A stretch of 64,000 bases of DNA, from positions 1,224 through 65,223 of IMG/VR virus record IMGVR_UViG_3300036835_000480, one strand, 5' to 3'. Position 1 is the first letter of the stretch, and each line of letters opens with the position of its first letter. The notes under the pieces were generated by a model. That model did not search any database. It was not told the origin of the DNA and saw only the letters and a list, made by a program, of their open reading frames with translations. Of this stretch, positions 12,593-54,719 are shown piece after piece. The position numbers were made by a program, and so were the translations under genes. This DNA comes from a virus. Its lineage: Duplodnaviria; Caudoviricetes.

Positions 12593-13003
12593 AGAACGTG
12601 CGGCAGGGGACTGTCGCCTTCAGGCGACAGAGGAATGCCGTCAGCCCGCAGGCTGAGCGCGTCCTCGTCCCCGCCTCACTCCTTCCGTTTATTGGCGTCG
12701 TTACGCCAAATCTCGTATACTACTAGGAGTCGGCTCTCCCTTGCGGACGGCGCCTCCGGGATGCCTCCAACCGCGTAAACGGTGACCCGACATGACCGGG
12801 GTAGCATGGCGAGCCGTGAGGCTCCCGGCGGGCAATCAGCGTACTGCCGTCCGCCCCGGCCGGGCTGCCCTAGGCCCTCGGGCCTAGCTCTCTCGCTAAG
12901 AGCATCACCCAGCCCAACGTAGGGGAGCGGGTGTCGCGAGTCCGGTGTCACGGGTCGAACGCTCCACTTACAAGCCGTTCGCCTTTAGGCGACGGTCGGT
13001 GAT
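12593..13003 (+). mobile_element. non-autonomous, ORF-less IS200/IS605-type element (411 bp)
   Basis: left hairpin CTGTCGCC-TTCA-GGCGACAG; right end CAAGCCGTTCGCCTTTAGGCGACGGTCGGTGAT; removal restores a TGATG stop/start overlap. Confidence 0.8.
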
Positions 13004-16169: not shown

Positions 16170-17252
16170 GTGGCACACGAGATCCTGGGTAAGCGCTTCG
16201 GCCAGGTCGAGGGGCGCCGCCCCGCCTGGCACGGCATCCAGGGCGCGACGTTCGCGGTCGGCACGTCGGCCACCGCGGCGGCCGAGGCCATCGGCGCGCT
16301 CTACGAGGTCAGCAAGGAACAAGCCTACGTCCAGGTCGACGGCGTCTGGACGCCGATCCCCGACCAGTACGCCCTGGTCCGCCCCGACTTCGGCGGCAGC
16401 GAGGCCGGCGACGCGGGGCGCGTCATGCCGCAGGTCGTCAGCGGCAGCTACGAGCTGATCCAGCACCGCGACTTCGCCAGCATCCTCGATCCGCTCAGCG
16501 AGCGCTGGCAGGTCGAGACCGCCGGCGTCCTCTCTAACGGCGGCCAGCTCTTCTTCTGCTTCGCCGCCGGCCAGTACGTCGTCAACCAGGACGCAATCAA
16601 GCTCTACTGGATCGCCTCCGACTTCAAGAACGGCCGCGCCGCGCGCCTCTTCTCGGCGCACACCCGCGTCGTCTGCAATAACACGTTCATCATCGCCGAG
16701 AGCGGCGCCATCGCTAGCCTCAAGTTTCCCCACACCCGCGGCGTCGCCGCCGAGCTGGAGTTCGCCGTCGCGGCGCTCGCCGCCGCCGAGGCGCAGCAAG
16801 CGCAGGTCGCCGCGCAGCTCGAAGCGATGGGCCGCCATCCCCTCACCACCCAGGAGCTGCACACGCTGCTCGCCGCCACCTACCCGATGCCCCAGGCCCC
16901 CCGCCGCGTGCGCACCGTCGAGGCGCTGGAGCGCGGGCGCGCCTTCCTCGCCGAGCACGCCCCGCTGGCCGCCTACTCCGCGGACATCGCGCGGCTCGAC
17001 GAGGTCCACGCCCACAACCGCCAGCGCGTCGAGGAGCTGCGCGCGGCCACCCTGGAACGCTACCACGTCTTCGGCGCCGAGCGCTCCGACTACCGCGACA
17101 CGGCCTGGGCCGCCTGGAATGCGATCACCGAGGTGAGCAACCACCGCCAGGGGCGCAACGCGGCGACCGAGGGCGAGATGGTCCTCTTCGGCTACCGCGG
17201 CGACGAGATGCGCCGCGCCTGGCGCGAGCTGACTAGCCTGGCCGGCTGCTAG
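16170..17252 (+). CDS. DUF932-like phage/plasmid protein
   Basis: MAHEI...PAWHG, ETAGVL..G..LF, RVVCNNT, HT, TAWAAWNAITE..NH. Confidence 0.8.
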   Translation: MAHEILGKRFGQVEGRRPAWHGIQGATFAVGTSATAAAEAIGALYEVSKEQAYVQVDGVWTPIPDQYALVRPDFGGSEAGDAGRVMPQVVSGSYELIQHRDFASILDPLSERWQVETAGVLSNGGQLFFCFAAGQYVVNQDAIKLYWIASDFKNGRAARLFSAHTRVVCNNTFIIAESGAIASLKFPHTRGVAAELEFAVAALAAAEAQQAQVAAQLEAMGRHPLTTQELHTLLAATYPMPQAPRRVRTVEALERGRAFLAEHAPLAAYSADIARLDEVHAHNRQRVEELRAATLERYHVFGAERSDYRDTAWAAWNAITEVSNHRQGRNAATEGEMVLFGYRGDEMRRAWRELTSLAGC

Positions 17253-24173: not shown

Positions 24174-24533
24174 CTAGGCGAGGAGCTGCTCGATCTCGGA
24201 CCACTGCGCGGGCCGCCAGACGTAGGCCTCGCAGCCGGCACAGGTCCCGAGCACGTCCAGCCACGCCCGCTGCGCGGGCAAGACCGTCCCGGTGTCGGTC
24301 TTCAGCTCGGCAAAGATGCAGCGCCCGGCCCGGCCCTCCCGACCGGGCCGAGCGAGCACCAGATCCGGGAACCCGGCCGCGCTATGGTCCGAGCGCCAGG
24401 TGTGATAGACGACCCAGTGGTGGAGCTGCGCGAGCGCCACGACCTGCGCCTGAAAGCGCTTCTCGGATAGCCGCAAGCGCTGCACGCGCGACGGCCCGCG
24501 CGGGAGCGTGGCGTCCCGCCAGAAAGTCGCCAC
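24174..24533 (-). CDS. VRR-NUC domain nuclease
   Basis: SEKRFQ, GFPDLVL, FAELK, Q.AWL, VWRP. Confidence 0.85.
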   Translation of the reverse strand: MATFWRDATLPRGPSRVQRLRLSEKRFQAQVVALAQLHHWVVYHTWRSDHSAAGFPDLVLARPGREGRAGRCIFAELKTDTGTVLPAQRAWLDVLGTCAGCEAYVWRPAQWSEIEQLLA

Positions 24534-24998
24534 CTAGGCCTCCGTCGGCTCCTGGAGCGGGGCATCTCCCTCCTCGAGCTCGTCGTCGGGCTCCTCCTCG
24601 TCGTCGTCCTCGGGCGGTCGCTCGTCCAGGATGCTGGCGGACGCGATCATGCTGCTCTCCCCTCGTGCGGTATCGACCCGCGGCACATCCGCGAGCCGCT
24701 GATAAATCTCCAGCCCCAGCGCCCGCGCCCAGCCGGCCTCGCGGTCGGCGCCGGGGCTGGAGCCGATCCAGTAGAGCGCGTCACAGGCGCCGAGCCACTC
24801 CCGACACCAGCCCATCCACCAGGCGTAGCCGAGACGCTCGGTGGGATCCCAGTAGTGGCTCAGGTGCGGGAGGAAGGGATGCCATCCGCGCTCGGCGAGC
24901 GCCGTAGCCACCGCGATCGCCCGCCGCACGTTGCGCAGCCGCAGCGCCGGCGAGGGCGCCGACAGCGGCCCGGCGACGTAGATCCGCAGCGCGGTCAA
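24534..24998 (-). CDS. nucleoside 2-deoxyribosyltransferase-like (DUF4406-type) protein
   Basis: IYVAGP, PFLPHL, CDAL, SPGADRE. Confidence 0.75.
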   Translation of the reverse strand: MTALRIYVAGPLSAPSPALRLRNVRRAIAVATALAERGWHPFLPHLSHYWDPTERLGYAWWMGWCREWLGACDALYWIGSSPGADREAGWARALGLEIYQRLADVPRVDTARGESSMIASASILDERPPEDDDEEEPDDELEEGDAPLQEPTEA

Positions 24999-25687
24999 CG
25001 CTCGACCTCACGCTGCCAGTGGTAGCAGTGGAGATAGGCGCGGAAGGCGCCGAAATCGCGCGCCTGGTGGGCCGCGGCGAACTCGTGGACGTAGAGGCTG
25101 CCCGGCTGCGTGCGCGGGGTCTGGACGACGAGCCGCCGCGCCGGGTACTCGCCGTGGCTCTCGGCGTAGGCCTCCGCATAAGCGGCGAGCTGGAGGCGCC
25201 AGGCGGGATCGGGCGCGGGATTGCCGCGCGGGTGGGCGCTGCCGCTCTTCCAATCGACGATCGCCAGCCCACGGCCCTCGGTAAGCCGCGCGACGAGGTC
25301 CGCCGTGCCCGCGTAGCCGTGCTGGTGCGAGACGAGGAACAACTCAGCGCCGATCACGCGCGCGACGTGGCTATGCCACCAGCCGAGGAAGGCTTCGGCG
25401 AAGGGCTCCAGGTCGGGATCCAGCGACGGCGCCCAATGGCCCGCGGTCGGGTTCGTGGCGAACGCCTGGAAGCCCGCGTGGAGCCGCCGCCCGAAGGTCG
25501 CGCCCAGGTGCATGCGCTCGTCGGCGGCCTCGTTGCCGACGCTACCACGCCACTGCTCCAGCGATTCTTTGCGGATCATGTTCGTGATCGTCGAGACGCG
25601 GACGTAGGGGAAGCCGTCCACGAGATAGTGCGTCCCCTGGTCGGGATCGTCGCGCGGGAGGTACTGCGGGCGCGGCTGCTGGATCAT
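24995..25687 (-). CDS. PD-(D/E)xK exonuclease
   Basis: RVSTI, G.RLH, E.FL...YAGTADL...IVDWKS, QLAAYAEA. Confidence 0.85.
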   Translation of the reverse strand: MIQQPRPQYLPRDDPDQGTHYLVDGFPYVRVSTITNMIRKESLEQWRGSVGNEAADERMHLGATFGRRLHAGFQAFATNPTAGHWAPSLDPDLEPFAEAFLGWWHSHVARVIGAELFLVSHQHGYAGTADLVARLTEGRGLAIVDWKSGSAHPRGNPAPDPAWRLQLAAYAEAYAESHGEYPARRLVVQTPRTQPGSLYVHEFAAAHQARDFGAFRAYLHCYHWQREVER

Positions 25688-25743
25688 GCGACCTCCGCGC
25701 AGGCCCAGACCACGGCGTAGCGCTGGCTCTGCGTGCGGCGGCG
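25684..25743 (-). pseudogene. orphaned original 3' end of the winged-helix gene at 26578-26874
   Basis: translates RRRTQSQRYAVVWACAEVA*, matching RRRTQSKRYAVVW at 26605-26643; its TGA overlaps the next ATG. Confidence 0.85.
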
Positions 25744-25744
25744 G

Positions 25745-26482
25745 CTATTCGAGATGACGCCAGGACCTGCGGTGCTCGATCGCCCGTATCCCTTGCGGCG
25801 TGAGTCCATAGCGCCTCCCGAGTACTACCGATGACACCCCGGCGGCGCGTGCCGCACGTATGGCGCGCACGTCCGCTGCGGTGAGCTTCGCCCGACGGTT
25901 GTCCTCGCCGTAACGGCTGAGCGTCCGTCGAGTCGGGCCGCCCGCCTCCGCCCAGATATGCCCGCGCACGAGCGCCGTCAGCGTGCTATCGCTCAAGCCA
26001 AAGGCATGGCCCAGAGCGGCGAGCGACTCGCCTGCAGCATGGCGCTCGCGAATTGTCGCTGCCTGCTCCGCCGTGATCTTGGCGGCCGTATTGCGCTCAC
26101 CCAGCGGCAGCCTGCCATGTCGCCGCTTGTCGCCCTCGTTCTCTTCCCAGGTCGCCCAGCGCAGATTCCCCAGGTGGTTGTTCGTAGGATCGCCGTCGTA
26201 GTGCGCGACGACATGGCGCGGCGATGGACGCGATCCCAGGAACGCCTTAGCGACCTCGACATGGACCGCGTGCTGGGTCCGAACGTTATTGGCACTAAGG
26301 GTAACGAGCGGATAGCCGGCAGGAGCGGGGGTTTGCTTCAGCACGAGGCGGCGCGCGAAAGTCGTCTTGCCGTTGCGGAAGCGGATCGACGCAATCTGCC
26401 CGTCGGTAGAGACCTCGTAGAGCCCCTCGAAACCAACGACGGGGCGCCACTCGACGGAGGGCGTAGTACACTGGGGATACAT
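25745..26482 (-). CDS. free-standing NUMOD4-HNH homing endonuclease
   Basis: EWRPVVGFEGLYEVSTDG, VHVEVAKAF, HYDGDPTNNHLGNLRWAT..EN; two GE.N..AKLT HTH repeats. Confidence 0.9.
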   Translation of the reverse strand: MYPQCTTPSVEWRPVVGFEGLYEVSTDGQIASIRFRNGKTTFARRLVLKQTPAPAGYPLVTLSANNVRTQHAVHVEVAKAFLGSRPSPRHVVAHYDGDPTNNHLGNLRWATWEENEGDKRRHGRLPLGERNTAAKITAEQAATIRERHAAGESLAALGHAFGLSDSTLTALVRGHIWAEAGGPTRRTLSRYGEDNRRAKLTAADVRAIRAARAAGVSSVVLGRRYGLTPQGIRAIEHRRSWRHLE

Positions 26483-26585
26483 GGGAGTCAACTCCTTCCA
26501 TGTCGGCCCCCGGGGTGTTGGTAGCACCGCCGGGGGTACTCTATGCGGTTGCCTAAAGTATAGCGTTTCTGGCGTCATTACGCCG
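26483..26585 (-). promoter_or_regulatory. endonuclease-cassette palindrome/-10 plus leader hairpin
   Basis: CGGCGTaatgACGCCA-7-TATACT; hairpin 26507-26536. Confidence 0.75.
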
Positions 26586-26874
26586 ATTCCTGGCCCGCCA
26601 CGGTCCATACGACCGCGTAGCGTTTACTTTGCGTCCGGCGCCGCCGACCGCTATCCACGACGAGTCCCTCTCGACGCAGCTCGATCAAACGGGGGCGCGT
26701 TGAATTCTGCTCGATCCCCAGGATGATGCTGATCTGCTCCGCGGTCAGCCCGCCGTGCGCGTAGAGCGTCGCGTAGACCTGCTGCCGCTGGGCCGGCGCG
26801 CTATGGCGAACGGACTGGGCGGCGGCGTAGGACGTATCGGAGTGGGGGGCGTAGGGGGGATGGTCATCGATCAT
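26578..26874 (-). CDS. winged-helix DNA-binding protein
   Basis: DTSYAAA, GLTAEQI..LG...STRPRLIEL...GLVVDSG.RR.T....AVVW. Confidence 0.8.
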   Translation of the reverse strand: MIDDHPPYAPHSDTSYAAAQSVRHSAPAQRQQVYATLYAHGGLTAEQISIILGIEQNSTRPRLIELRREGLVVDSGRRRRTQSKRYAVVWTVAGQESA

Positions 26875-27446
26875 CCGAGAGCCTCCAGTAACGCGACCAG
26901 TTGCTCTGCGGTAAGGCGACGACGGAGGTAGGCCGCAAGAGTCACCATGTCGTCGAGCGGGACGGTCGCGGTCGGACGGCGGAAGCCTGCCTCGATCATG
27001 GCCGCGTGCGGGGAGCATTCGCCGGCGAGGACGCGGGCATGCAGATCAGGACGGTCGGATCGGAGCTTACGAAGGGCGTGCTGCGCTGTATTGCCATCTG
27101 GCCGCACAACTTCGTTTACATTGTAAACAAGGTCAGTGCGCTCACCTTGCCGCCCCATCGTTGCCTGATCAATCAGATCCAACACATCCAGGTAATCCCG
27201 ACACCAGCGCTTGAGTGAGCCGATATCCGTTCCTAGCCCCTCGGGCGGTCCACTCTGCACGAAACGGACGAACTCATCGAAGCGCACCACCTCACGCGTG
27301 CGTCGCACCTCGCGCTCGATCCAGCACTGCTCGATGATCACCCGCCGCAGCAGATCAGGGATCGCCTCCAGCCGTTGTCCACCATGAGCGACAGCCTCCT
27401 GGAGCGCCATCACGACGGAGTCATTAGCAGCGAGCGTATTCAGCAC
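26871..27446 (-). CDS. conserved-looking hypothetical phage protein
   Basis: PPEGLG, QGERTDL, LRKLRSDRPDLHARVLAGE.SPHAAM.EAGFR. Confidence 0.7.
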   Translation of the reverse strand: MLNTLAANDSVVMALQEAVAHGGQRLEAIPDLLRRVIIEQCWIEREVRRTREVVRFDEFVRFVQSGPPEGLGTDIGSLKRWCRDYLDVLDLIDQATMGRQGERTDLVYNVNEVVRPDGNTAQHALRKLRSDRPDLHARVLAGECSPHAAMIEAGFRRPTATVPLDDMVTLAAYLRRRLTAEQLVALLEALG

Positions 27447-29403
27447 GCGCCGCCTCCAGCCACCCCTCGTAGTCGGTCGGCGCCCAGGGATCTTGCGTGC
27501 GCGCCAGTAGCTCCTTCATCAGGCGCTCGCGAGCCTCGATCTGGGCCAGCGTGATCCGGTTACCCTGGAGCCAGGCGCCATCAAGACTAGCCTGGAGTCT
27601 ATAGACCTGAGCATGCGTCAGCCCTGTTGTCGCTACGAAACGGCTCGTAAGTCGACTCAGCGGCTGCTTCGCCTTGCGTAGCGCATCCTCGGGCGCGACT
27701 GCCGCAGATCCGGACGTAGGCAGCGATATCGCGGATACCGCGCCCCCATCGAGCTGAGCATTTAGCCGCAGGCAACGAGCGAGGAATGGAGCCGAGACGC
27801 TTGCAGTACCGGCGAGCCCGAGAATCAGCTCAGCGCGGGCAATCTCCTGCCGCGTATAGAGATCATGATCAAAAAAGACATCATCAGCTTCTGCGGTGGC
27901 ACCGATCGTCACCGCTAGATTGCTCTGCCGCGGCTTATCTGGATCGAGCGTAGCCGTGCAAGTGTGCTCCTGCTGCTCGGCCTCGTCGAGGGCGTGCTCG
28001 CGCTGCTCCTTGATCCGCTGCACGTACGCGACGAGCAGCGGTTCTCGCGGGATAAACCACCAGCCAGCCTCACCGTCGAGTAGCTCACCGCTTTCGGCGA
28101 TCAGCCGTACTAGGCGACCGACAGCCTGGCGGAAATACATCTCGGTCAAGACGTTGGTGGCGTAGACGCCAACGAACAGCCGGGGAATATCGATCCCCTC
28201 GCTGACCATCCGCACCGCGACGATCCAGCGTTCTTGCCCCTGGCGGAAAGCCTCGATCACGTCTCCCGCGTTGGGATCATCAGAGAGCGCGACGGACGGA
28301 TGCTCACCAGTAATCTCGTGTAGTAGGTCTGCAACACTACGAGCGTGGACCTGATCCATCGCAATCACGAGTCCCGCCGCTCGCGAGTAGACGGATTCAC
28401 GCACGTCGCGCAGTCGTGCATCCGCATCGCGGAGGACCGTCGGCAGCCAATCGGCCTGGGTTGAGAGGGCCGTCCGCAATCGCTGCATGCTCTCTTGCTC
28501 GTCCAACTCATCACGGAAGGTCGCTTCGCGCTGCCCATCTCGCGCTGAAAACCATTTCATCTGGCCTTCGTAGCTCGGGAAGTAAACCGGGCGCACAACC
28601 CCATCGCGCAGCGCGTCGCCATAGGTGTAAGTAAAGTGTGCTCGGCACTTCCCGTCGATGTAGCGCACGAACGGGATCGGATGATTATCGCTACGGAAGG
28701 GTGTCCCGGTAATCAGCAACCGCTGCTGAGCGTGCTCGAACGCATGTTGAAGCGCATCGCCCCATAGTAGTGAGTCGCCCATATGATGCGGCTCGTCGAA
28801 GATTACGAGCGTTGCGCGGCGGCACTGCCGGCGAAATACATCAGGGTTCGAGGCAACCTGGGCATAAGTCACCACTACGCCGTGAAACTGAGCATGCTCG
28901 TGATCATGCTCGTTCAGGAATTGGTGGCTCAGGCTGATCCCAACGGCAGCCCCCGCCTTTGCCCATTGACGGCGCAAGGCCGTAGTGGGGACGACGATGA
29001 CTACGCGCACCACTCGGCCGGTATAGAGGGCATCGTGGGCACAATACAATCCGAACCGAGTCTTACCCGCTCCGGGCGTGCCGTCGATCAGTACATCAGA
29101 GTCTAGCGAGCGCTGATACTCCTGAAATGCTTCGAGCGCCCATCGTCGGAGCAGTAGTCCCTCAGGCCAAGGCGTCTGAAGCGTCCCCAAGTCTCTTTCC
29201 CCCTTTACGTGATTGCACCGTGGACAGAGAGCCTGCCCGTTCCAGACATCCGTAGCGCCGCCTCGGGAATAGGCAGTAACGTGATCAGCGTGCCAATCAG
29301 GCGGGAGCGGCGCACCACAGCGTTCGCAATAGCCATCACTCTCGACGAGTAGTGCCCAGCGCTGGCGTCCTGAGAATCGCCGCGCCTGGCGCCGACGCAC
29401 CAT
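27424..29403 (-). CDS. HNH nuclease fused to a superfamily-2 (DExH) helicase
   Basis: CERCG..WHADH..GG.T...NGQALC..CN..K; TPGAGKT, IFDEPHH, TGTPFRSD, MVSEGIDIP, QAVGRLVR. Confidence 0.88.
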   Translation of the reverse strand: MVRRRQARRFSGRQRWALLVESDGYCERCGAPLPPDWHADHVTAYSRGGATDVWNGQALCPRCNHVKGERDLGTLQTPWPEGLLLRRWALEAFQEYQRSLDSDVLIDGTPGAGKTRFGLYCAHDALYTGRVVRVVIVVPTTALRRQWAKAGAAVGISLSHQFLNEHDHEHAQFHGVVVTYAQVASNPDVFRRQCRRATLVIFDEPHHMGDSLLWGDALQHAFEHAQQRLLITGTPFRSDNHPIPFVRYIDGKCRAHFTYTYGDALRDGVVRPVYFPSYEGQMKWFSARDGQREATFRDELDEQESMQRLRTALSTQADWLPTVLRDADARLRDVRESVYSRAAGLVIAMDQVHARSVADLLHEITGEHPSVALSDDPNAGDVIEAFRQGQERWIVAVRMVSEGIDIPRLFVGVYATNVLTEMYFRQAVGRLVRLIAESGELLDGEAGWWFIPREPLLVAYVQRIKEQREHALDEAEQQEHTCTATLDPDKPRQSNLAVTIGATAEADDVFFDHDLYTRQEIARAELILGLAGTASVSAPFLARCLRLNAQLDGGAVSAISLPTSGSAAVAPEDALRKAKQPLSRLTSRFVATTGLTHAQVYRLQASLDGAWLQGNRITLAQIEARERLMKELLARTQDPWAPTDYEGWLEAARAEYARC

Positions 29404-29410
29404 CGCCCAC

Positions 29411-29629
29411 CTACGCCTCCCTCCCCGCGCGGCGCTGGGCGGGGCGTGTAGCAGCGGCCCGGCGCTTGACCGCGAGCGCCTCCACGTCGCCGCGGCGGAT
29501 GAGGTGGCCGAGGCCCGTCGGGGTCGCGGGTAATTCCCCACGGCGGATCAGGTTGAGCACGGTCTGCGCGGAGCAACCGAGCACATGCCCCGCCTCGGTG
29601 GCGCCCAGCAGATCGTCAGCCGTCGTCAT
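29411..29629 (-). CDS. excisionase-like HTH DNA-binding protein
   Basis: LLGATEAGHVLGCSAQTV..LIRRGELPA. Confidence 0.8.
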   Translation of the reverse strand: MTTADDLLGATEAGHVLGCSAQTVLNLIRRGELPATPTGLGHLIRRGDVEALAVKRRAAATRPAQRRAGREA

Positions 29630-32748: not shown

Positions 32749-34026
32749 CTACTCCGTCGCGCTCAGCCGCCCCGGTACCGCCTCGTCGCGCCGCACCTTG
32801 CCCTCGATCACCGCCCAGACACGGTCGAGGCAGTCCGCGTCGCCCTTCCAGCCCTGGCTCGTGGCGTAGGCGCTGACGCTGCCGCCCAGTGCCCGCTCCA
32901 CGTCCGCCTGGGAGCACTCCAGCTCGTCCAGCGCCGCGGCCATCAGCGCCCGCAGCCCCGCGCCGGTGAACGGGAAGCGCACCGTCGTCGCCGCAGCGAG
33001 CGCCGCCTCGAAGCCGGCCAGGTCCTCCTCCGGCGTGCGCGTCGGACCCGGCGCGTCGGTCAGGACCGGCCGCGGCGGCGGGCGCTCGCCGTTCGACCAC
33101 GCCTTGCTGTCGGGACAGCTCGCCCAGTGCGTCTGGTCCGTCGCCTTGCCGTCGACCACGTCGTAGGGCATCGCCTTGCCGTTCTTGCTCTTCTCCCAGA
33201 CGATCGGGGCGTGGCAGGAGCGGCACTGCTCGAAGCTAGGCGCCGCGGCCCCCGGCGCGCCCACCCCGGCGGCCGCCAAATCCGCGGCGTGATCATCACG
33301 ACTTTGGGCAGGTTGCACAGGTCGCGGTGGGGCAGGCACTCCCTGCCCCAACCAATCCCGTAGAGCAGCGGCGAACTCGGCGCCCGGCCGCGCGATCACC
33401 GCATCGGTTAGCGCGGGGCAGCGCGACTTCGTGATGACCAGGTTGTGCTCGTGATCAAGATCGCCGCAGGCGTCGAACTCGAAGTCCATGTCTTGCCGTT
33501 GGATCGGTGCCAGCCCTATTTTACGGACAGTGGTTTTACCTGTCCGCTCATCCTTCTCCTGCACGTACTCCGTCTTCGCGCGCATCGTGGCGATGATGTG
33601 GCAGGTGCTGCCGAGCATCGCGTCGACCATCGCGTTGTGCTGGGGCGTGACCTTGCGCCAGGCACCGAAAGAGTTACCGCGCTCGCGCGTCGCCTCGCGG
33701 TCGACCATTTCCAGCGCGCCCTCTTTGCCGGTCCAGGCGTGGCTGAGGCTGTCGATAATCAATACGTCGTAGCCCGAAGCCTCGGCGGCCTGGATCGCCT
33801 CGACGTAGGTCGCTGGCGCGAACGTGGTCAGCTCCAACACGTCGAAGGTGAAGTCGCCAGCATACTTCGAGGCGCTACCGCGCTCGGTGTCGATCACCGC
33901 GACCCGCTCACCGAGCGCGGTAGCAACCTTAAGAGCGGTCATCGTCTTCCCCGAGCCAGCCGGTCCGACGAGCCCGAGCCGCAATCGTCCTTGTTGTTGG
34001 GTCGCGCGGCGGAACGTGAAAGCCAT
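32749..34026 (-). CDS. AAA-family ATPase (Sak4-like recombination protein)
   Basis: GPAGSGKT, IDTE, LIIDSLSHAW, HIIATMRAK, FEFD. Confidence 0.85.
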   Translation of the reverse strand: MAFTFRRATQQQGRLRLGLVGPAGSGKTMTALKVATALGERVAVIDTERGSASKYAGDFTFDVLELTTFAPATYVEAIQAAEASGYDVLIIDSLSHAWTGKEGALEMVDREATRERGNSFGAWRKVTPQHNAMVDAMLGSTCHIIATMRAKTEYVQEKDERTGKTTVRKIGLAPIQRQDMDFEFDACGDLDHEHNLVITKSRCPALTDAVIARPGAEFAAALRDWLGQGVPAPPRPVQPAQSRDDHAADLAAAGVGAPGAAAPSFEQCRSCHAPIVWEKSKNGKAMPYDVVDGKATDQTHWASCPDSKAWSNGERPPPRPVLTDAPGPTRTPEEDLAGFEAALAAATTVRFPFTGAGLRALMAAALDELECSQADVERALGGSVSAYATSQGWKGDADCLDRVWAVIEGKVRRDEAVPGRLSATE

Positions 34027-34712
34027 TAGCCCTTCTCCTTCCAGGTCTTGCCTCGTAGAACGTGGCTAATCGTTTGCTGGCAGACGCCGAAGTCGAGGGC
34101 CAGTAGACGTTGAGAGTCCCCGCGGCGGGCGCGGATAGCGCGGACCGCTTCCCAGTTCAATCGCGCGTTCGGGTGGTCCTCGCCGGCCATTGGCGAGAGC
34201 GCGGCGTGGTGACGGCGATGCACGCTTCGCGTCAGTACCTGGAGATTCGCCGGGTCGTTATTGGCCTCATCGCCGTCGATGTGGTGCACGATCTCGCTGT
34301 CGAGCAACGGGCGCCCCAGCACACCCGCCGCGACCGCACGGTGCTGGGCAACATAATGGCTTACGCGATTACCGGGCTGGCGCACGTAGCGGTACCCGCG
34401 GCTCTGAACGACCCCGCCTTTCCAGTGAGGGTTATCTGCCCCAAGGCGCTGCGTTGAGAGCACCGCGCCGAGGCAGGTGGGTGAGCAATAGGCGCGGGTC
34501 TGGCGTCCAATCGCCAGATCGCGCGCCTGCAAGCGATTTGGGCGAAAGGTCGTCCCGCACCCGTCGCAGGCGCGTGGCTCACGCGGATACTGGACCTGGG
34601 CAGCGTAGCCACAGGCGCGCCCGCAATACCTGCCGCGCTTGGGGTCCGTCGAGATCACCCGCGCGGTAAACGGTGCGCCGCAGTGCTGGCATAGGCGGGT
34701 CTCGGTCTTCAT
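34026..34712 (-). CDS. free-standing HNH homing endonuclease
   Basis: NPHWKGG, HRAVA...IVHHIDGDEANNDPANLQVL; GEDHPNARL HTH. Confidence 0.88.
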   Translation of the reverse strand: MKTETRLCQHCGAPFTARVISTDPKRGRYCGRACGYAAQVQYPREPRACDGCGTTFRPNRLQARDLAIGRQTRAYCSPTCLGAVLSTQRLGADNPHWKGGVVQSRGYRYVRQPGNRVSHYVAQHRAVAAGVLGRPLLDSEIVHHIDGDEANNDPANLQVLTRSVHRRHHAALSPMAGEDHPNARLNWEAVRAIRARRGDSQRLLALDFGVCQQTISHVLRGKTWKEKG

Positions 34713-34960
34713 GCCGCCACCGCCAGGTAGCGCAGAAACGCGTTTACGAGCGCCGCGTGAGAGCAGCGCGCGCCGTGGGTGCCGGCCATGCACGAGCAGG
34801 CGATCCGCCCGTTGGGGTTGGCGTAGACCTGGTGCGGCGCGCCGCCCGAGGCGCTGGAGACGGTGAAGCGCCGGCCGTCCACGCTGAGGATGCGCGGGCG
34901 ATCGGGTCGATCGAGCAGCGCGCGGTCGTGCGAGTCGAGGTGTAGGGTGGCCATGCTCAT
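34709..34960 (-). CDS. small SWIM-type zinc-finger protein
   Basis: FTVSS.S...H.V...CSC......CSH; AAGGAG RBS. Confidence 0.65.
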   Translation of the reverse strand: MSMATLHLDSHDRALLDRPDRPRILSVDGRRFTVSSASGGAPHQVYANPNGRIACSCMAGTHGARCSHAALVNAFLRYLAVAA

Positions 34961-45960: not shown

Positions 45961-46058
45961 TGGCGTCGTTACGCCAATTCTGCTAGAATTGTAGACCGCA
46001 AAAGGCCGGGCGCTGTTAGAGCAGCCCCGACCGTGACGCCGAGCGCTGGAGACGCCCG
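45961..46058 (+). promoter_or_regulatory. endonuclease-cassette palindrome/-10 plus leader hairpin
   Basis: TGGCGTcgttACGCCA-7-TAGAAT; hairpin 46004-46032. Confidence 0.78.
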
Positions 46059-53310: not shown

Positions 53311-54719
53311 CAGTACCCCCCATACCAGAGCGCGGTCTGTTGATCGGGGATCAGCGTTACCACGCTGGCGTTCGCCCCGCTATCGTCGGTCACCGTTACC
53401 AACGGGCCGACGAAGTTCAGCGCCGCCCGCGCCGGCAGCGGCGTGCCCTCGTCCCAGATGACGTGCCCCGGCTGCGGGCTTACTCCCCAGAGCGCATCGG
53501 TCCCGTTTGACTGGAGCACCTGCCCGCTCGGGCCCAGGCCCAGCCGCGTCGTCCCGCTGGCCCCGCGCACGATCAGGTCGCCGCGCGTGGTCATCGGGTC
53601 GGCAAAGCCGCTGGCGCTCGCCATCCACTTCACGGCATGGTCCGCCGGATCGACGCTCAGTACCTGCCCGTCGAGCCCCTTCCCGAGGCGCGCCGTGACG
53701 TTGCTGCCGTTGCGGTAGATCAGGTCGTAGGCGGTGGTCATCGGATCGGCGAAGCCGCCGCCGCCACCCGTCGGCGCCGCCCAGGCCGGCGCGCCGGCGA
53801 CCACCGTCAGGACCTGCCCCGCGGCGCCGATGCCCAGCCGGCCCGGCGCGCCGCCGGTCCCCGCGACGATTAGATCCGCAAGCGTCGTCATCGGGTTCGT
53901 CATGCCCGTGGGCGGGGCGGCCCAGGTAAGCAGCGAGCCCGTCACGTTGTCGTCCCCGTGCGCGGTGAGCACCTGCCCCGCGCTGCCGGGCACGAGCGTC
54001 TGAAAGTCCGAGCCGTTGTACTGGATGAGCGCGCCGACGCGCAGCCCGGTGGGGGCGATGATGCCGCTGCCCGGCGGGGTCGACGGCACCGCCGCCCAGG
54101 CCGGCACCGCACCGCTGCCGTTCGCCGTGAGGACGAACCCCGTCGTGCCGGGCGCGAGGTAGCTCCAGGTCGCCGTCGCATCCTTGAGCAGGACGGCCCC
54201 GACCGGTGCCCCGTGCGGATCGGCGATATAGTCCGGCGTCAGCCAGGCCGGCAGCCCGTTGCTGATCCCGAGCACTTGCCCCGCCAGCCCGATGCCGAGC
54301 CGCGCGGTGACGTTGGTGCCGTCACGATAGATCAGATCGCCCGGCGTGGTCGTCGGGTCAATGAGCGCGCCGGCCGCCCCGGGCGCCCAGGCTGGCAGGC
54401 CGCCAACCACGGTGAGCACCTGCCCGGCCGTGCCGATGCCGAGGCGGTCGGTTACGTTACTCGCGTTCCGTAGCAGCAGGTCGCCGGCCGTCGTCAGGGG
54501 GTCCGTTAGCGGGTCAAGCGCCTCCAGCGCTTTGAGCCGTCCTTCGACGCTCGGCGTCGCGGCCGGGTCGCTATCCGGCCCCACCTTGATCTCGATCCGC
54601 GCCAGCAAGTCGTACACCCAGTTGAGGTCGGCGGCCTCGACGATCGTACCCACGGTGCCGCTACCGTCGTCGTCGACCTCGTGCGCCCGCGTCTCGACGG
54701 GGCCCGTCGGCCAGGGCAT
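53310..54719 (-). CDS. tail fibre-like repeat protein
   Basis: repeats of DPMTT.GDLI.R....RLG.G..GQVL....G.PAW. Confidence 0.8.
   Translation of the reverse strand: MPWPTGPVETRAHEVDDDGSGTVGTIVEAADLNWVYDLLARIEIKVGPDSDPAATPSVEGRLKALEALDPLTDPLTTAGDLLLRNASNVTDRLGIGTAGQVLTVVGGLPAWAPGAAGALIDPTTTPGDLIYRDGTNVTARLGIGLAGQVLGISNGLPAWLTPDYIADPHGAPVGAVLLKDATATWSYLAPGTTGFVLTANGSGAVPAWAAVPSTPPGSGIIAPTGLRVGALIQYNGSDFQTLVPGSAGQVLTAHGDDNVTGSLLTWAAPPTGMTNPMTTLADLIVAGTGGAPGRLGIGAAGQVLTVVAGAPAWAAPTGGGGGFADPMTTAYDLIYRNGSNVTARLGKGLDGQVLSVDPADHAVKWMASASGFADPMTTRGDLIVRGASGTTRLGLGPSGQVLQSNGTDALWGVSPQPGHVIWDEGTPLPARAALNFVGPLVTVTDDSGANASVVTLIPDQQTALWYGGY

What the first reader, a model, noticed from the sequence alone, without database searches (positions are those of the whole stretch)
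25684..26720. Endonuclease insertion that repairs its target gene with a recoded duplicate 3' end
Seen: the winged-helix gene ends RRRTQSKRYAVVWTVAGQESA*. Right after the HNH stop lies an orphan RRRTQSQRYAVVWACAEVA* in normal GC-rich codons, whose TGA still overlaps the next gene's ATG. Over 13 codons 12 residues match but 9 of 39 nt differ, 7 of them synonymous. Established: fungal mitochondrial homing endonucleases (atp6, rps3) insert with a replacement 3' end. Inference: the same splicing-free strategy operates in a phage, with the insertion boundary preserved at 25744.
Basis: partly seen in the sequence, partly recalled or inferred. Interest (0 to 1): 0.8.

Follow-up and report, generated by a model that had tools for sequence, protein, structure and literature searches.

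The report
Homing endonuclease cassette replacing a gene end
A selfish DNA-cutting-enzyme gene sits between two phage genes, seems to have brought its own copy of the upstream gene's last codons, and left the original end stranded behind it; this trick is known from fungal mitochondria and yeast but I found no published phage case.

Summary
On the minus strand a 98-aa winged-helix gene (26874..26578) is followed by a 95-nt leader and then an intact I-HmuI-like NUMOD4/HNH gene (26482..25745). An untranslated 20-codon copy of the winged-helix 3' end follows (25744..25684). Its TGA overlaps the ATG of a PD-(D/E)XK nuclease gene.

The two copies share 32 of 42 nt. Over 13 codons they differ by 8 synonymous changes and 1 non-synonymous change, so they diverged as working genes.

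The orphan resembles the ends of relatives with no close HNH homologue on a matching contig. The working end terminates inside a palindrome-plus-TATACT leader. That leader seems to travel with related HNH genes.

The best reading is a homing-endonuclease cassette that arrived with a donor gene end, like fungal mORFs and yeast WHO elements.

- **Weak points:** The empty site is inferred from protein ends and matching contig lengths. Cleavage is untested.
- **Earlier notes:** this scan's unchecked AI notes report the same design in other phages (e1-5375210, e1-6031944, e1-5366676).
- **Literature:** six searches found no published phage case.

Confidence is about 0.65 and interest is moderate.

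The parts
26871..27446 (-). Upstream gene A (191 aa, no family match). Its TGA overlaps the winged-helix ATG (ATGA).
   Evidence: No Pfam or PHROG match.
26578..26874 (-). Winged-helix gene (98 aa), the working copy. It ends ...RRRRTQSKRYAVVWTVAGQESA, then TAA.
   Evidence: phrog_1123 at E = 2.4e-21, with weaker MarR-like matches. Pfam matches are all below cut-off. There are 4665 homologues at E <= 1e-3.
26602..26643 (-). Upstream (working) copy of the duplicated block. It encodes RRRTQSKRYAVVWT.
   Evidence: 32 of 42 nt identical to 25702-25743, z about 7. 8 synonymous and 1 non-synonymous differences.
26581..26709 (-). Lower-GC3 tract of the winged-helix gene (codons 57-98). It may be a co-converted donor tract.
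   Evidence: GC3 is 0.69 here against 0.91 for codons 1-56. The change-point permutation gives p = 0.065, so this is only suggestive. The HNH has GC3 0.76. The orphan and the downstream genes have about 0.90.
26571..26584 (-). Palindrome GGCGT-N4-ACGCC. It overlaps the last two winged-helix codons and the TAA stop.
   Evidence: 4 copies in the window against 0.36 expected. The copies at 12694 and 45962 are also followed by a -10-like hexamer. Its ACGCCA arm is readable as the 'TP' at the called N-termini of 3 of 3 close HNH relatives.
26557..26562 (-). TATACT, a -10-like hexamer 8 nt after the palindrome (inferred cassette promoter).
   Evidence: Read. The simple sigma-70 two-hexamer scan called nothing here.
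26483..26577 (-). HNH leader: a hairpin at 26536..26507, AAGGAG at 26497..26492, and a stem that includes the ATG.
   Evidence: RNA fold of -51 kcal/mol, z = -2.73 against 200 shuffles. No Rfam match.
25745..26482 (-). Free-standing HNH homing endonuclease gene (245 aa: NUMOD4, HNH_3 and two HTH repeats). An in-frame ATG at 26578 (TAATG overlap) would give 278 aa.
   Evidence: Pfam NUMOD4 34.2 bits and HNH_3 35.5 bits, both above cut-off. I-HmuI 1U3E at E = 1.2e-8. The C-terminus aligns with the ends of 5 of 6 homologues; the sixth is truncated.
25684..25744 (-). Orphan (resident) winged-helix 3' end: (S)RRRTQSQRYAVVWACAEVA, then TGA. It has no start codon of its own after the HNH stop.
25692..25696 (-). 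GGAGG inside the orphan, 4 nt before the nuclease ATG. This is the probable ribosome-binding site of the downstream gene.
   Evidence: Read. The function is inferred.
24995..25687 (-). PD-(D/E)XK nuclease/exonuclease gene (230 aa). Its ATG overlaps the orphan's TGA.
   Evidence: PDDEXK_1 38.3 bits. phrog_298 exonuclease at E = 2.4e-28. It has 15 extra N-terminal residues compared with 5 of 5 close homologues.

Best explanation
A free-standing, I-HmuI-like NUMOD4/HNH homing-endonuclease cassette has homed into the junction between a phage winged-helix gene and the PD-(D/E)XK nuclease gene that was translationally coupled to it.

The cassette came from a diverged relative together with that relative's version of the winged-helix 3' end. 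That imported end runs into the cassette's own palindrome/-10 leader. The imported end now completes the gene.

The resident last 19-20 codons were pushed behind the HNH stop. There they are no longer translated, but they still supply the GGAGG and the stop/start overlap for the nuclease gene.

Shown here:
- the anatomy of the locus;
- the intact HNH gene;
- a duplication restricted to 42-49 nt;
- synonymous-only divergence between the two copies.

Inferred:
- Cleavage or nicking of an HNH-less allele near the Arg-codon run, at about 25744.
- Repair that copied the donor's end plus the HNH.
- A right-hand join made without homology.
- Immunity of the imported copy through its silent differences.
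For: 1. The HNH gene is intact and of a homing type. NUMOD4 and HNH_3 score above Pfam cut-offs. It matches I-HmuI 1U3E at E = 1.2e-8. H94, N106 and N115 are invariant in 7 of 7 aligned homologues, and its C-terminus lines up with theirs.

2. The two copies differ by 8 synonymous changes and 1 non-synonymous change (pS 0.83, pN 0.034). The chance of 1 or fewer non-synonymous changes among 9 under neutrality is 1e-4. So both copies were under protein-level selection while they diverged.

3. The orphan matches the ends of P0002 (16 of 19) and of P0003 and P0010 (15 of 19 each) better than the working end does (13 of 19). I counted these by eye.

4. P0002 and the nuclease homologue P0135 share a longest contig of 44,747 nt. 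P0011 and P0137 share 8,785 nt. No HNH of 42% identity or more has those contig lengths. The ends ...EIEL with start MNG..., and ...EDLP with start VNG..., are compatible with ATGA and GTGA overlaps. That is the arrangement the orphan keeps.

5. Close HNH homologues sit next to the same neighbours elsewhere. P0018 (63%) and the winged-helix protein P0004 each lie on one NCBI contig of 2,998 nt. P0015 (75%) and the nuclease P0139 each lie on one NCBI contig of 2,656 nt. Nucleases 87-90% identical to P0139 lie on contigs of 18.9, 29.7 and 36.1 kb with no such HNH.

6. The working end terminates inside the palindrome GGCGT-N4-ACGCC. That palindrome is over-represented, with 4 copies against 0.36 expected. 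It heads other cassettes in this phage. The called N-termini of P0015, P0016 and P0018 read through the same leader.

7. GC3 is about 0.90 in the orphan, the downstream genes and winged-helix codons 1-56. It is 0.69-0.76 in winged-helix codons 57-98 and in the HNH.
Against: - No DNA of any close relative was obtained. The 'empty site' and the neighbour relations rest on protein ends and on equal contig lengths and sources, not on alignments.
- The orphan-versus-working-end discrimination rests on 3 residues.
- The GC3 change-point is not significant (p = 0.065). Upstream gene A and the helicase also have low GC3 (0.67), so composition alone does not delimit a cassette.
- The winged-helix protein P0004 (66% identical) and the HNH P0018 (63%) are about equally diverged from the window's proteins. 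That also fits old vertical co-inheritance.
- The window's nuclease gene has 15 N-terminal residues absent from 5 of 5 relatives. The resident junction therefore differs from theirs.
- All four runs laid carry only the HNH-containing form.
- No cleavage data exist.
- The orphan could be retained simply because it holds the downstream ribosome-binding site.
Confidence: 0.65

Rival explanations
1. Ordinary mosaic recombination. Two related phages recombined out of register at the conserved wing-coding block. The HNH gene was carried along as a passenger, and its nuclease played no part.
For: The end of this gene is a mosaic junction in relatives. Near-identical proteins end AVAEIEL, AIAEDLP or AVAEIYERLALHPR. 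No cleavage evidence exists. The GC3 pattern of the region is patchy.
Against: The inserted material is exactly one HNH gene plus its leader. Related HNH genes appear to recur beside the same two neighbour genes and to be absent from near-identical relatives. That pattern is typical of homing.
Confidence: 0.17
2. In-place tandem duplication of the gene end. The HNH later inserted between the copies and the copies drifted apart.
For: It would give the same gross layout.
Against: An unselected orphan should collect mostly non-synonymous changes, yet 8 of 9 differences are synonymous. The orphan resembles the relatives' ends more than its own genome's working end does. The working end runs into the cassette palindrome.
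Confidence: 0.05
3. Purposeful recoding. The silent differences in the working copy were selected in place, either to escape the HNH's own recognition or to prevent deletion by repeat recombination. They were not imported.
For: The silent changes cluster in the block next to the insertion point. The lower-GC3 codons (CAA, AGT, AAA, GTA) are unusual for the neighbouring high-GC3 genes. This scan's note e1-6206539 reports similar tracts beside other nucleases in this genome (unchecked).
Against: pS of 0.83 over 13 codons is saturation-level. That is more simply explained by an allele from a relative of 66-73% protein identity. The low-GC3 tract spans about 42 codons, longer than any plausible recognition site.
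Confidence: 0.1
4. Chance similarity or assembly chimera.
For: The block is short (42 nt) and the DNA is GC-rich.
Against: z is about 7 against shuffles. The pair ranks 2nd of 444 in the tail scan. Contigs in three runs are identical across the junctions, although those runs may be the source samples.
Confidence: 0.03

Closest known systems
Mobile endonuclease ORFs (mORFs) of fungal mitochondria: Allomyces macrogynus atp6; Glomus sp. atp6, atp9, cox2 and nad3 (PMC3630166, passages read)
   Same: An endonuclease ORF lies between an inserted, expressed C-terminal gene part and the native C-terminal part stranded downstream. The native part matches relatives. The two copies differ strongly in DNA but little in protein. 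No splicing is involved.
   Different: The mORFs encode LAGLIDADG or GIY-YIG enzymes, often fused in frame to the host gene, in organelle genomes. Here an HNH (I-HmuI type) sits as a separate gene with its own leader, in a phage. The orphan also doubles as the ribosome-binding region of the next gene.
WHO elements at yeast FBA1 (Coughlan et al. 2020, PMC7282813, abstract and outline read)
   Same: These homing elements replace the 3' end of their target gene each time they integrate, with allele-specific cleavage and no splicing.
   Different: WHO proteins are intein-like LAGLIDADG-zinc-finger proteins in a eukaryotic nucleus, and repeated homing builds clusters. Here I see a single event and a different nuclease family.
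Free-standing homing endonucleases of T4-type phages and intronless homing (seg and mob genes; review PMC2988022, passages read)
   Same: Free-standing HNH or GIY-YIG genes lie between conserved genes. Flanking markers are co-converted. RNA hairpins and dedicated promoters control expression.
   Different: The review places them in intergenic regions, and the word stem 'duplicat' does not occur in its text. No stranded copy of a host gene end is described there.
I-HmuI (PDB 1U3E, listed as 'HNH homing endonuclease')
   Same: Sequence similarity over NUMOD4, HNH and the first helix-turn-helix (query 10-175 against chain 1-159, E = 1.2e-8).
   Different: As I recall, I-HmuI is encoded in a group I intron and nicks one strand. 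Here there is no intron (no Rfam match) and the activity is untested.
mobE embedded in the ribonucleotide reductase gene of phage Aeh1 (seen only as a reference title in PMC2988022; details recalled)
   Same: A phage HNH gene has invaded a coding gene without an intron or intein.
   Different: As I recall, that host gene is split into two expressed pieces. Here the gene is kept whole by a substitute end.

Membership tests
Free-standing HNH homing endonuclease (I-HmuI-like) | NUMOD4 plus HNH_3 domains with C-terminal helix-turn-helix DNA-binding repeats | tested here: met
   NUMOD4 34.2 bits (cut-off 23.4). HNH_3 35.5 bits (cut-off 24.8). HTH_38 is below cut-off. phrog_59 at E = 7.4e-37. 1U3E at E = 1.2e-8.
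Free-standing HNH homing endonuclease (I-HmuI-like) | Conserved catalytic His and Asn residues | tested here: met
   H94, N106 and N115 are invariant in 7 of 7 aligned sequences. The assignment of catalytic roles is recalled, not tested.
Free-standing HNH homing endonuclease (I-HmuI-like) | Sporadic presence at one conserved genomic site among close relatives | tested here: inconclusive
   This is supported only by equal contig lengths and sources of neighbour proteins. HNH is present on the 2,998-nt and 2,656-nt contigs. No close HNH is listed for the 44,747, 8,785, 18,869, 29,725 or 36,118-nt contigs. No DNA was seen.
Free-standing HNH homing endonuclease (I-HmuI-like) | Site-specific cleavage or nicking of the allele that lacks the gene | not testable with these tools
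   This needs purified protein and substrates.
Gene-end-replacing homing element (mORF / WHO type) | The endonuclease gene is bracketed by two copies of the host gene's end, and the upstream copy completes the gene | tested here: met
   The working copy carries the family's conserved ...R.AVVW wing motif and a short tail. Among 123 homologues that matched the motif search, 77 have tails of 9 residues or fewer.
Gene-end-replacing homing element (mORF / WHO type) | The stranded (native) copy is closer to element-free relatives than the inserted copy is | tested here: met
   At protein level only: 16 of 19 and 15 of 19 against 13 of 19. The margin is 3 residues.
Gene-end-replacing homing element (mORF / WHO type) | The copies diverged as functional alleles (mostly silent differences) | tested here: met
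   8 synonymous and 1 non-synonymous differences, P = 1e-4.
Gene-end-replacing homing element (mORF / WHO type) | An uninterrupted allele exists in relatives at the DNA level | tested here: inconclusive
Four runs showed no HNH-less form.
Transposon / insertion sequence with target-site duplication | Short identical direct repeats flanking an element that encodes a transposase | tested here: not met
   The repeats are 42 nt long and 76% identical. The only gene between them is an HNH.
Group I intron or intein carrying a homing endonuclease | A ribozyme fold, or an in-frame protein-splicing domain, around the endonuclease | tested here: not met
   No Rfam match at E <= 1 in 25500-27000. The winged-helix gene ends at a stop codon before the HNH.

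The most novel reading that the evidence does not exclude
The duplicated wing-coding block is itself the HNH's recognition or nick site. The cassette-borne copy would then be an immune allele by virtue of its eight silent changes.

This locus would be one instance of a general phage strategy that I did not find in print. In it, I-HmuI-type free-standing endonuclease genes invade the 3' ends of coding genes by carrying a substitute gene end fused to their own operator-promoter leader.

The 33-nt tail-coding left arm shared by the HNH cassettes of L010-L012 would be a second form of the same strategy. The palindrome over the winged-helix stop might even be an operator for that winged-helix protein.
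Probability: 0.3. Interest if true: 0.7.

Novelty: new variant of a known kind. Interest (0 to 1): 0.5.

Why it matters
Free-standing phage homing endonucleases are usually described as confined to intergenic gaps, because landing in a gene would be lethal without an intron or intein.

A cassette that brings a substitute gene end removes that limit. It creates hybrid genes and leaves datable 'fossil' gene ends. It also marks the likely cleavage site to within a few bases.

If this is common, as this scan's notes from other phages and the L010-L012 cassettes hint, it would matter in several ways:
- It would be an overlooked source of phage gene mosaicism.
- It would cause short orphan ORFs in annotations.
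- It would be a practical way to predict endonuclease target sites from sequence alone.

Tried and rejected
**DNA of close relatives.** The following all failed to give a close relative.
- blastn of 24500-27500 against GenBank phages gave no match.
- tblastn with the winged-helix and nuclease proteins found only relatives of 26-38% identity.
- The search for related loci returned only distant loci (26-46% identity) or nothing. This covered viral contigs with five queries, metagenome contigs and genome contigs.
- L006, L007, L008 and L014 do not share the neighbourhood.

**Sequencing runs.** Six soil-metagenome runs hold the stretch, and five of them may be its source. I laid four of the six. 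They showed only the HNH-bearing form. The three listed joints had sides of 38 nt or less at likeness 80, so I treat them as noise. A missing empty-site form in contigs is no evidence of absence.

**Homology beyond the block.**
- Downstream of the two stops the score is 9, and 185 of 500 shuffles reach it.
- Upstream, a 12-nt match is reached by 21 of 500 shuffles, but it is not collinear with the duplicated block.
- I rejected both.

**Other checks.**
- The GC3 change-point in the winged-helix gene gave p = 0.065. I keep it only as a hint.
- The simple promoter and terminator scan found 0 sites in 25500-27000.
- The Rfam search found 0 matches.
- I considered HNH read-through into the nuclease gene, because the two are in the same frame 60 nt apart. 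I dropped it as a one-in-three coincidence.
- I considered translation of the 41-aa ORF 25809..25684. I dropped it because its start lies inside the HNH gene and nothing supports it.

**Literature.** Six full-text searches and passages of PMC2248197, PMC10448857, PMC3706429, PMC2988022 and PMC12724721 gave no phage case of a stranded gene end beside a homing endonuclease. The library lacks most subscription journals, and I did not ask for supplements, so a published case may exist.
Full report
**What the window is.** The window is 64 kb of a 65,223-bp IMG/VR virus record, which CheckV rates 75% complete. Near-identical DNA occurs in six soil-metagenome runs, five of which may be its source. 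The region of interest is a replication and recombination module on the minus strand. In order it holds:
- an HNH-helicase (29541..27424);
- gene A (27446..26871, no family match);
- a 98-aa winged-helix gene (26874..26578; phrog_1123 at E = 2.4e-21, weaker MarR-like matches);
- an HNH gene (26482..25745);
- a PD-(D/E)XK exonuclease gene (25687..24995);
- a nucleoside deoxyribosyltransferase-like gene;
- a small endonuclease-like gene.

- The winged-helix gene ends ...GRRRRTQSKRYAVVWTVAGQESA, then TAA.
- Directly after the HNH stop (TAG 25747..25745) another frame reads (S)RRRTQSQRYAVVWACAEVA, then TGA.
- That TGA (25686..25684) overlaps the nuclease ATG. Gene A's TGA overlaps the winged-helix ATG in the same way.
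- The nucleotide match is 26643..26602 against 25743..25702, with 32 of 42 identities. It scores 34 against 19.1 +/- 2.1 in 300 shuffles.
- Neither flank is homologous.
- tblastn on the phage's own record finds the orphan at E = 1.5e-4.
- As a control I compared the last 20 residues of all 444 ORFs of 80 aa or more with their downstream 2.4 kb. This pair ranked second. The first-ranked pair is an unrelated repeat near 53.7 and 54.3 kb.
- Contigs of three runs cover the junctions without a difference. These may be the source samples.

**The gene in between is an intact homing-type endonuclease.**
- NUMOD4 and HNH_3 pass Pfam's cut-offs.
- The protein aligns with I-HmuI (1U3E) over residues 10-175 at E = 1.2e-8.
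- H94, N106 and N115 are invariant among seven homologues.
- Its C-terminus (...RRSWRHLE) coincides with the ends of five of the six homologues; the sixth (P0018) is truncated.
- So the ORF is not truncated, and the right edge of the insert lies at or just after the TAG, that is at 25744/25745 within about 2 nt.

**The two copies diverged as working genes.** Over the 13 shared codons there are 8 synonymous differences and 1 non-synonymous difference (pS 0.83, pN 0.034). If changes fell at random, 1 or fewer non-synonymous changes among 9 has P = 1e-4. An orphan that arose by in-place duplication and then drifted would not look like this. Two alleles from diverged phages, brought together recently, would.

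**Which copy is resident?** Three lines of evidence point to the orphan.

*First, the ends of relatives.* The closest winged-helix homologues are 68-73% identical. They come from JGI metagenomes and were seen on up to 58 contigs. They end ...QSQRYAVVWAVAEIEL or ...QSRRYAVVWAIAEDLP.
- The orphan shares 16 of 19 and 15 of 19 residues with these ends.
- It shares 13 of 19 with its own genome's working end (counted by eye).
- The margin is only three residues.

*Second, the stop/start overlap.* Those relatives seem to lack the HNH.
- P0002 and the nuclease homologue P0135 share a longest contig of 44,747 nt.
- P0011 and P0137 share 8,785 nt.
- No HNH of 42% identity or more has those contig lengths.
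- Their protein ends and starts (...EIEL with MNG..., ...EDLP with VNG...) are what ATGA and GTGA stop/start overlaps would give. This is an inference from the genetic code, because the DNA was not seen.
- The orphan keeps just such an overlap. It also keeps a GGAGG 4 nt before the nuclease ATG.

*Third, the working end runs into the cassette's leader.*
- Its last codons and stop lie inside the palindrome GGCGT-N4-ACGCC (26584..26571).
- A TATACT follows 8 nt later.
- After that comes a structured leader (fold z = -2.73) with AAGGAG before the HNH ATG.
- The palindrome occurs 4 times in the window against 0.36 expected.
- Two other copies (12694, 45962) also precede a -10-like hexamer.
- This was a lead from the scan's note e1-6206536. 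I checked it only to this extent.

The gene calls of the three closest HNH homologues (P0015, P0016, P0018) start M(I/V)TP... and read through an equivalent leader. 'TP' is how the ACGCCA arm translates. The last residues of P0004 and the first residues of P0018 can be encoded by one such palindrome in the same register as in the window. This again is inference only.

**The HNH recurs at this site.**
- P0018 (63% identical, C-terminally truncated) and the winged-helix homologue P0004 each occur on a single NCBI contig of 2,998 nt.
- P0015 (75%) and the nuclease homologue P0139 each occur on a single NCBI contig of 2,656 nt.
- Nucleases 87-90% identical to P0139 sit on contigs of 18.9, 29.7 and 36.1 kb, for which no close HNH is listed.

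Presence beside the same neighbours in some relatives, absence in near-identical others, and one decayed copy make up the usual picture of a homing endonuclease gene. Here, however, that picture rests on matching contig lengths and not on alignments.

**Composition.** GC3 is about 0.90 in the orphan, the nuclease gene and the two genes after it. It is 0.91 in winged-helix codons 1-56, 0.69 in codons 57-98, and 0.76 in the HNH. That fits a co-converted donor tract of about 130 nt. However, the change-point gives p = 0.065, and the genes upstream also have low GC3 (0.67). I count this only as a hint.

**Most likely mechanism.**
1. The ancestral arrangement was gene A, the winged-helix gene and the nuclease gene, coupled by 4-nt overlaps.
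2. In a mixed infection, the HNH of a diverged relative nicked or cut the HNH-less allele near the Arg-codon run.
3. The left end invaded the donor's winged-helix gene and copied its end, the leader and the HNH.
4. The new strand was then joined without homology to the right-hand end, which still carried the resident last 19-20 codons.

The result keeps the winged-helix protein whole. It keeps the nuclease gene's ribosome-binding site and start. It also splits the old target. The imported copy differs at 9 of 39 positions, which may protect it from the enzyme and from repeat deletion. Steps 2 to 4 and this protection are inferred.

**Comparison with what is known.**
- The layout matches the mORFs of fungal mitochondria. 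There the inserted C-terminal part is expressed and the native part is stranded downstream. The native part matches relatives, and DNA identity is low with high protein identity (PMC3630166, passages read).
- It also matches the yeast WHO elements, which replace the 3' end of FBA1 on each integration (PMC7282813, abstract read).
- It differs in nuclease family, in being a separate gene with its own leader that overlaps the host gene's stop, in the orphan's second role as a translation-initiation region, and in being in a phage.
- The T4 review places free-standing endonucleases in intergenic regions and never uses the stem 'duplicat'.
- Six full-text searches found no phage case.
- This scan's own unchecked notes report the same design in other phages (e1-5375210, e1-6031944, e1-5366676). 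So it is probably recurrent and not unique to this window.

**A second hint from elsewhere.** Three viral contigs carry HNH genes 37-39% identical to this one (L010-L012).
- They share the 33 nt before the HNH ATG. Further upstream, identity drops to background.
- Those 33 nt encode the last 11 residues (...APAAGDAE[TV]KS) and the overlapping stop of three unrelated upstream genes.
- That looks like a cassette arm that supplies a gene end, though not a copy of the host's own end.

**Limits.**
So there is no nucleotide-level empty site, no donor, and no dated insertion.
- The discrimination between the two ends is small.
- The equal divergence of P0004 and P0018 from the window's proteins would also fit old co-inheritance.
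- The window's nuclease has 15 N-terminal residues that 5 of 5 relatives lack. The resident junction was therefore not identical to theirs.

**Verdict.** The best explanation has confidence of about 0.65. I rate it a new variant of a known kind, of moderate interest.

Noticed in passing
L010:2742-2777, L011:2959-2994, L012:2962-2997: Three viral contigs carry related HNH genes. They share the 33 nt before the HNH ATG and nothing further upstream. That arm encodes the last 11 residues (...APAAGDAE[TV]KS) and the overlapping stop of three unrelated upstream genes.
   Followed up: partly
window 26571-26584, 12694-12707, 45962-45975, 16341-16354: The palindrome GGCGT-N4-ACGCC occurs 4 times against 0.36 expected. 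Three copies are followed 7-8 nt later by a -10-like hexamer (TATACT or TAGAAT). It may be a shared operator-promoter of mobile cassettes, as note e1-6206536 proposes.
   Followed up: partly
window 26576-26578: An ATG overlapping the winged-helix TAA (TAATG) is in frame with the HNH and would give a 278-aa protein. Gene calls of three relatives use the equivalent start. I-HmuI aligns only from residue 10 of the short form.
   Followed up: partly
window 34026-34793 (-): A second free-standing HNH gene has a zinc-finger-like N-terminus and an HTH C-terminus. It is 34% identical to part of the first HNH and abuts the start of a 425-aa ATPase gene. The tail scan found no stranded gene end there.
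   Followed up: partly
window 25643-25687 (-): The PD-(D/E)XK nuclease has 15 N-terminal residues (MIQQPRPQYLPRDDP) that are absent from 5 of 5 close homologues.
   Followed up: no
proteins P0002, P0008, P0003, P0010 (relatives): Near-identical winged-helix proteins differ only after ...AVVWA: VAEIEL, IAEDLP or VAEIYERLALHPR. The gene's last codons therefore look like a recurrent recombination junction in this phage group.
   Followed up: no
window 53344-53718 and about 54268 (+): This was the top hit of the tail scan (score 73). A 20-residue stretch is repeated about 550 nt downstream in a probably non-coding frame, which suggests a DNA repeat in the tail-fibre region.
   Followed up: no
window 27424-29541 (-): The 705-aa helicase carries an N-terminal HNH/endonuclease VII-like domain (residues about 36-144).
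   Followed up: no
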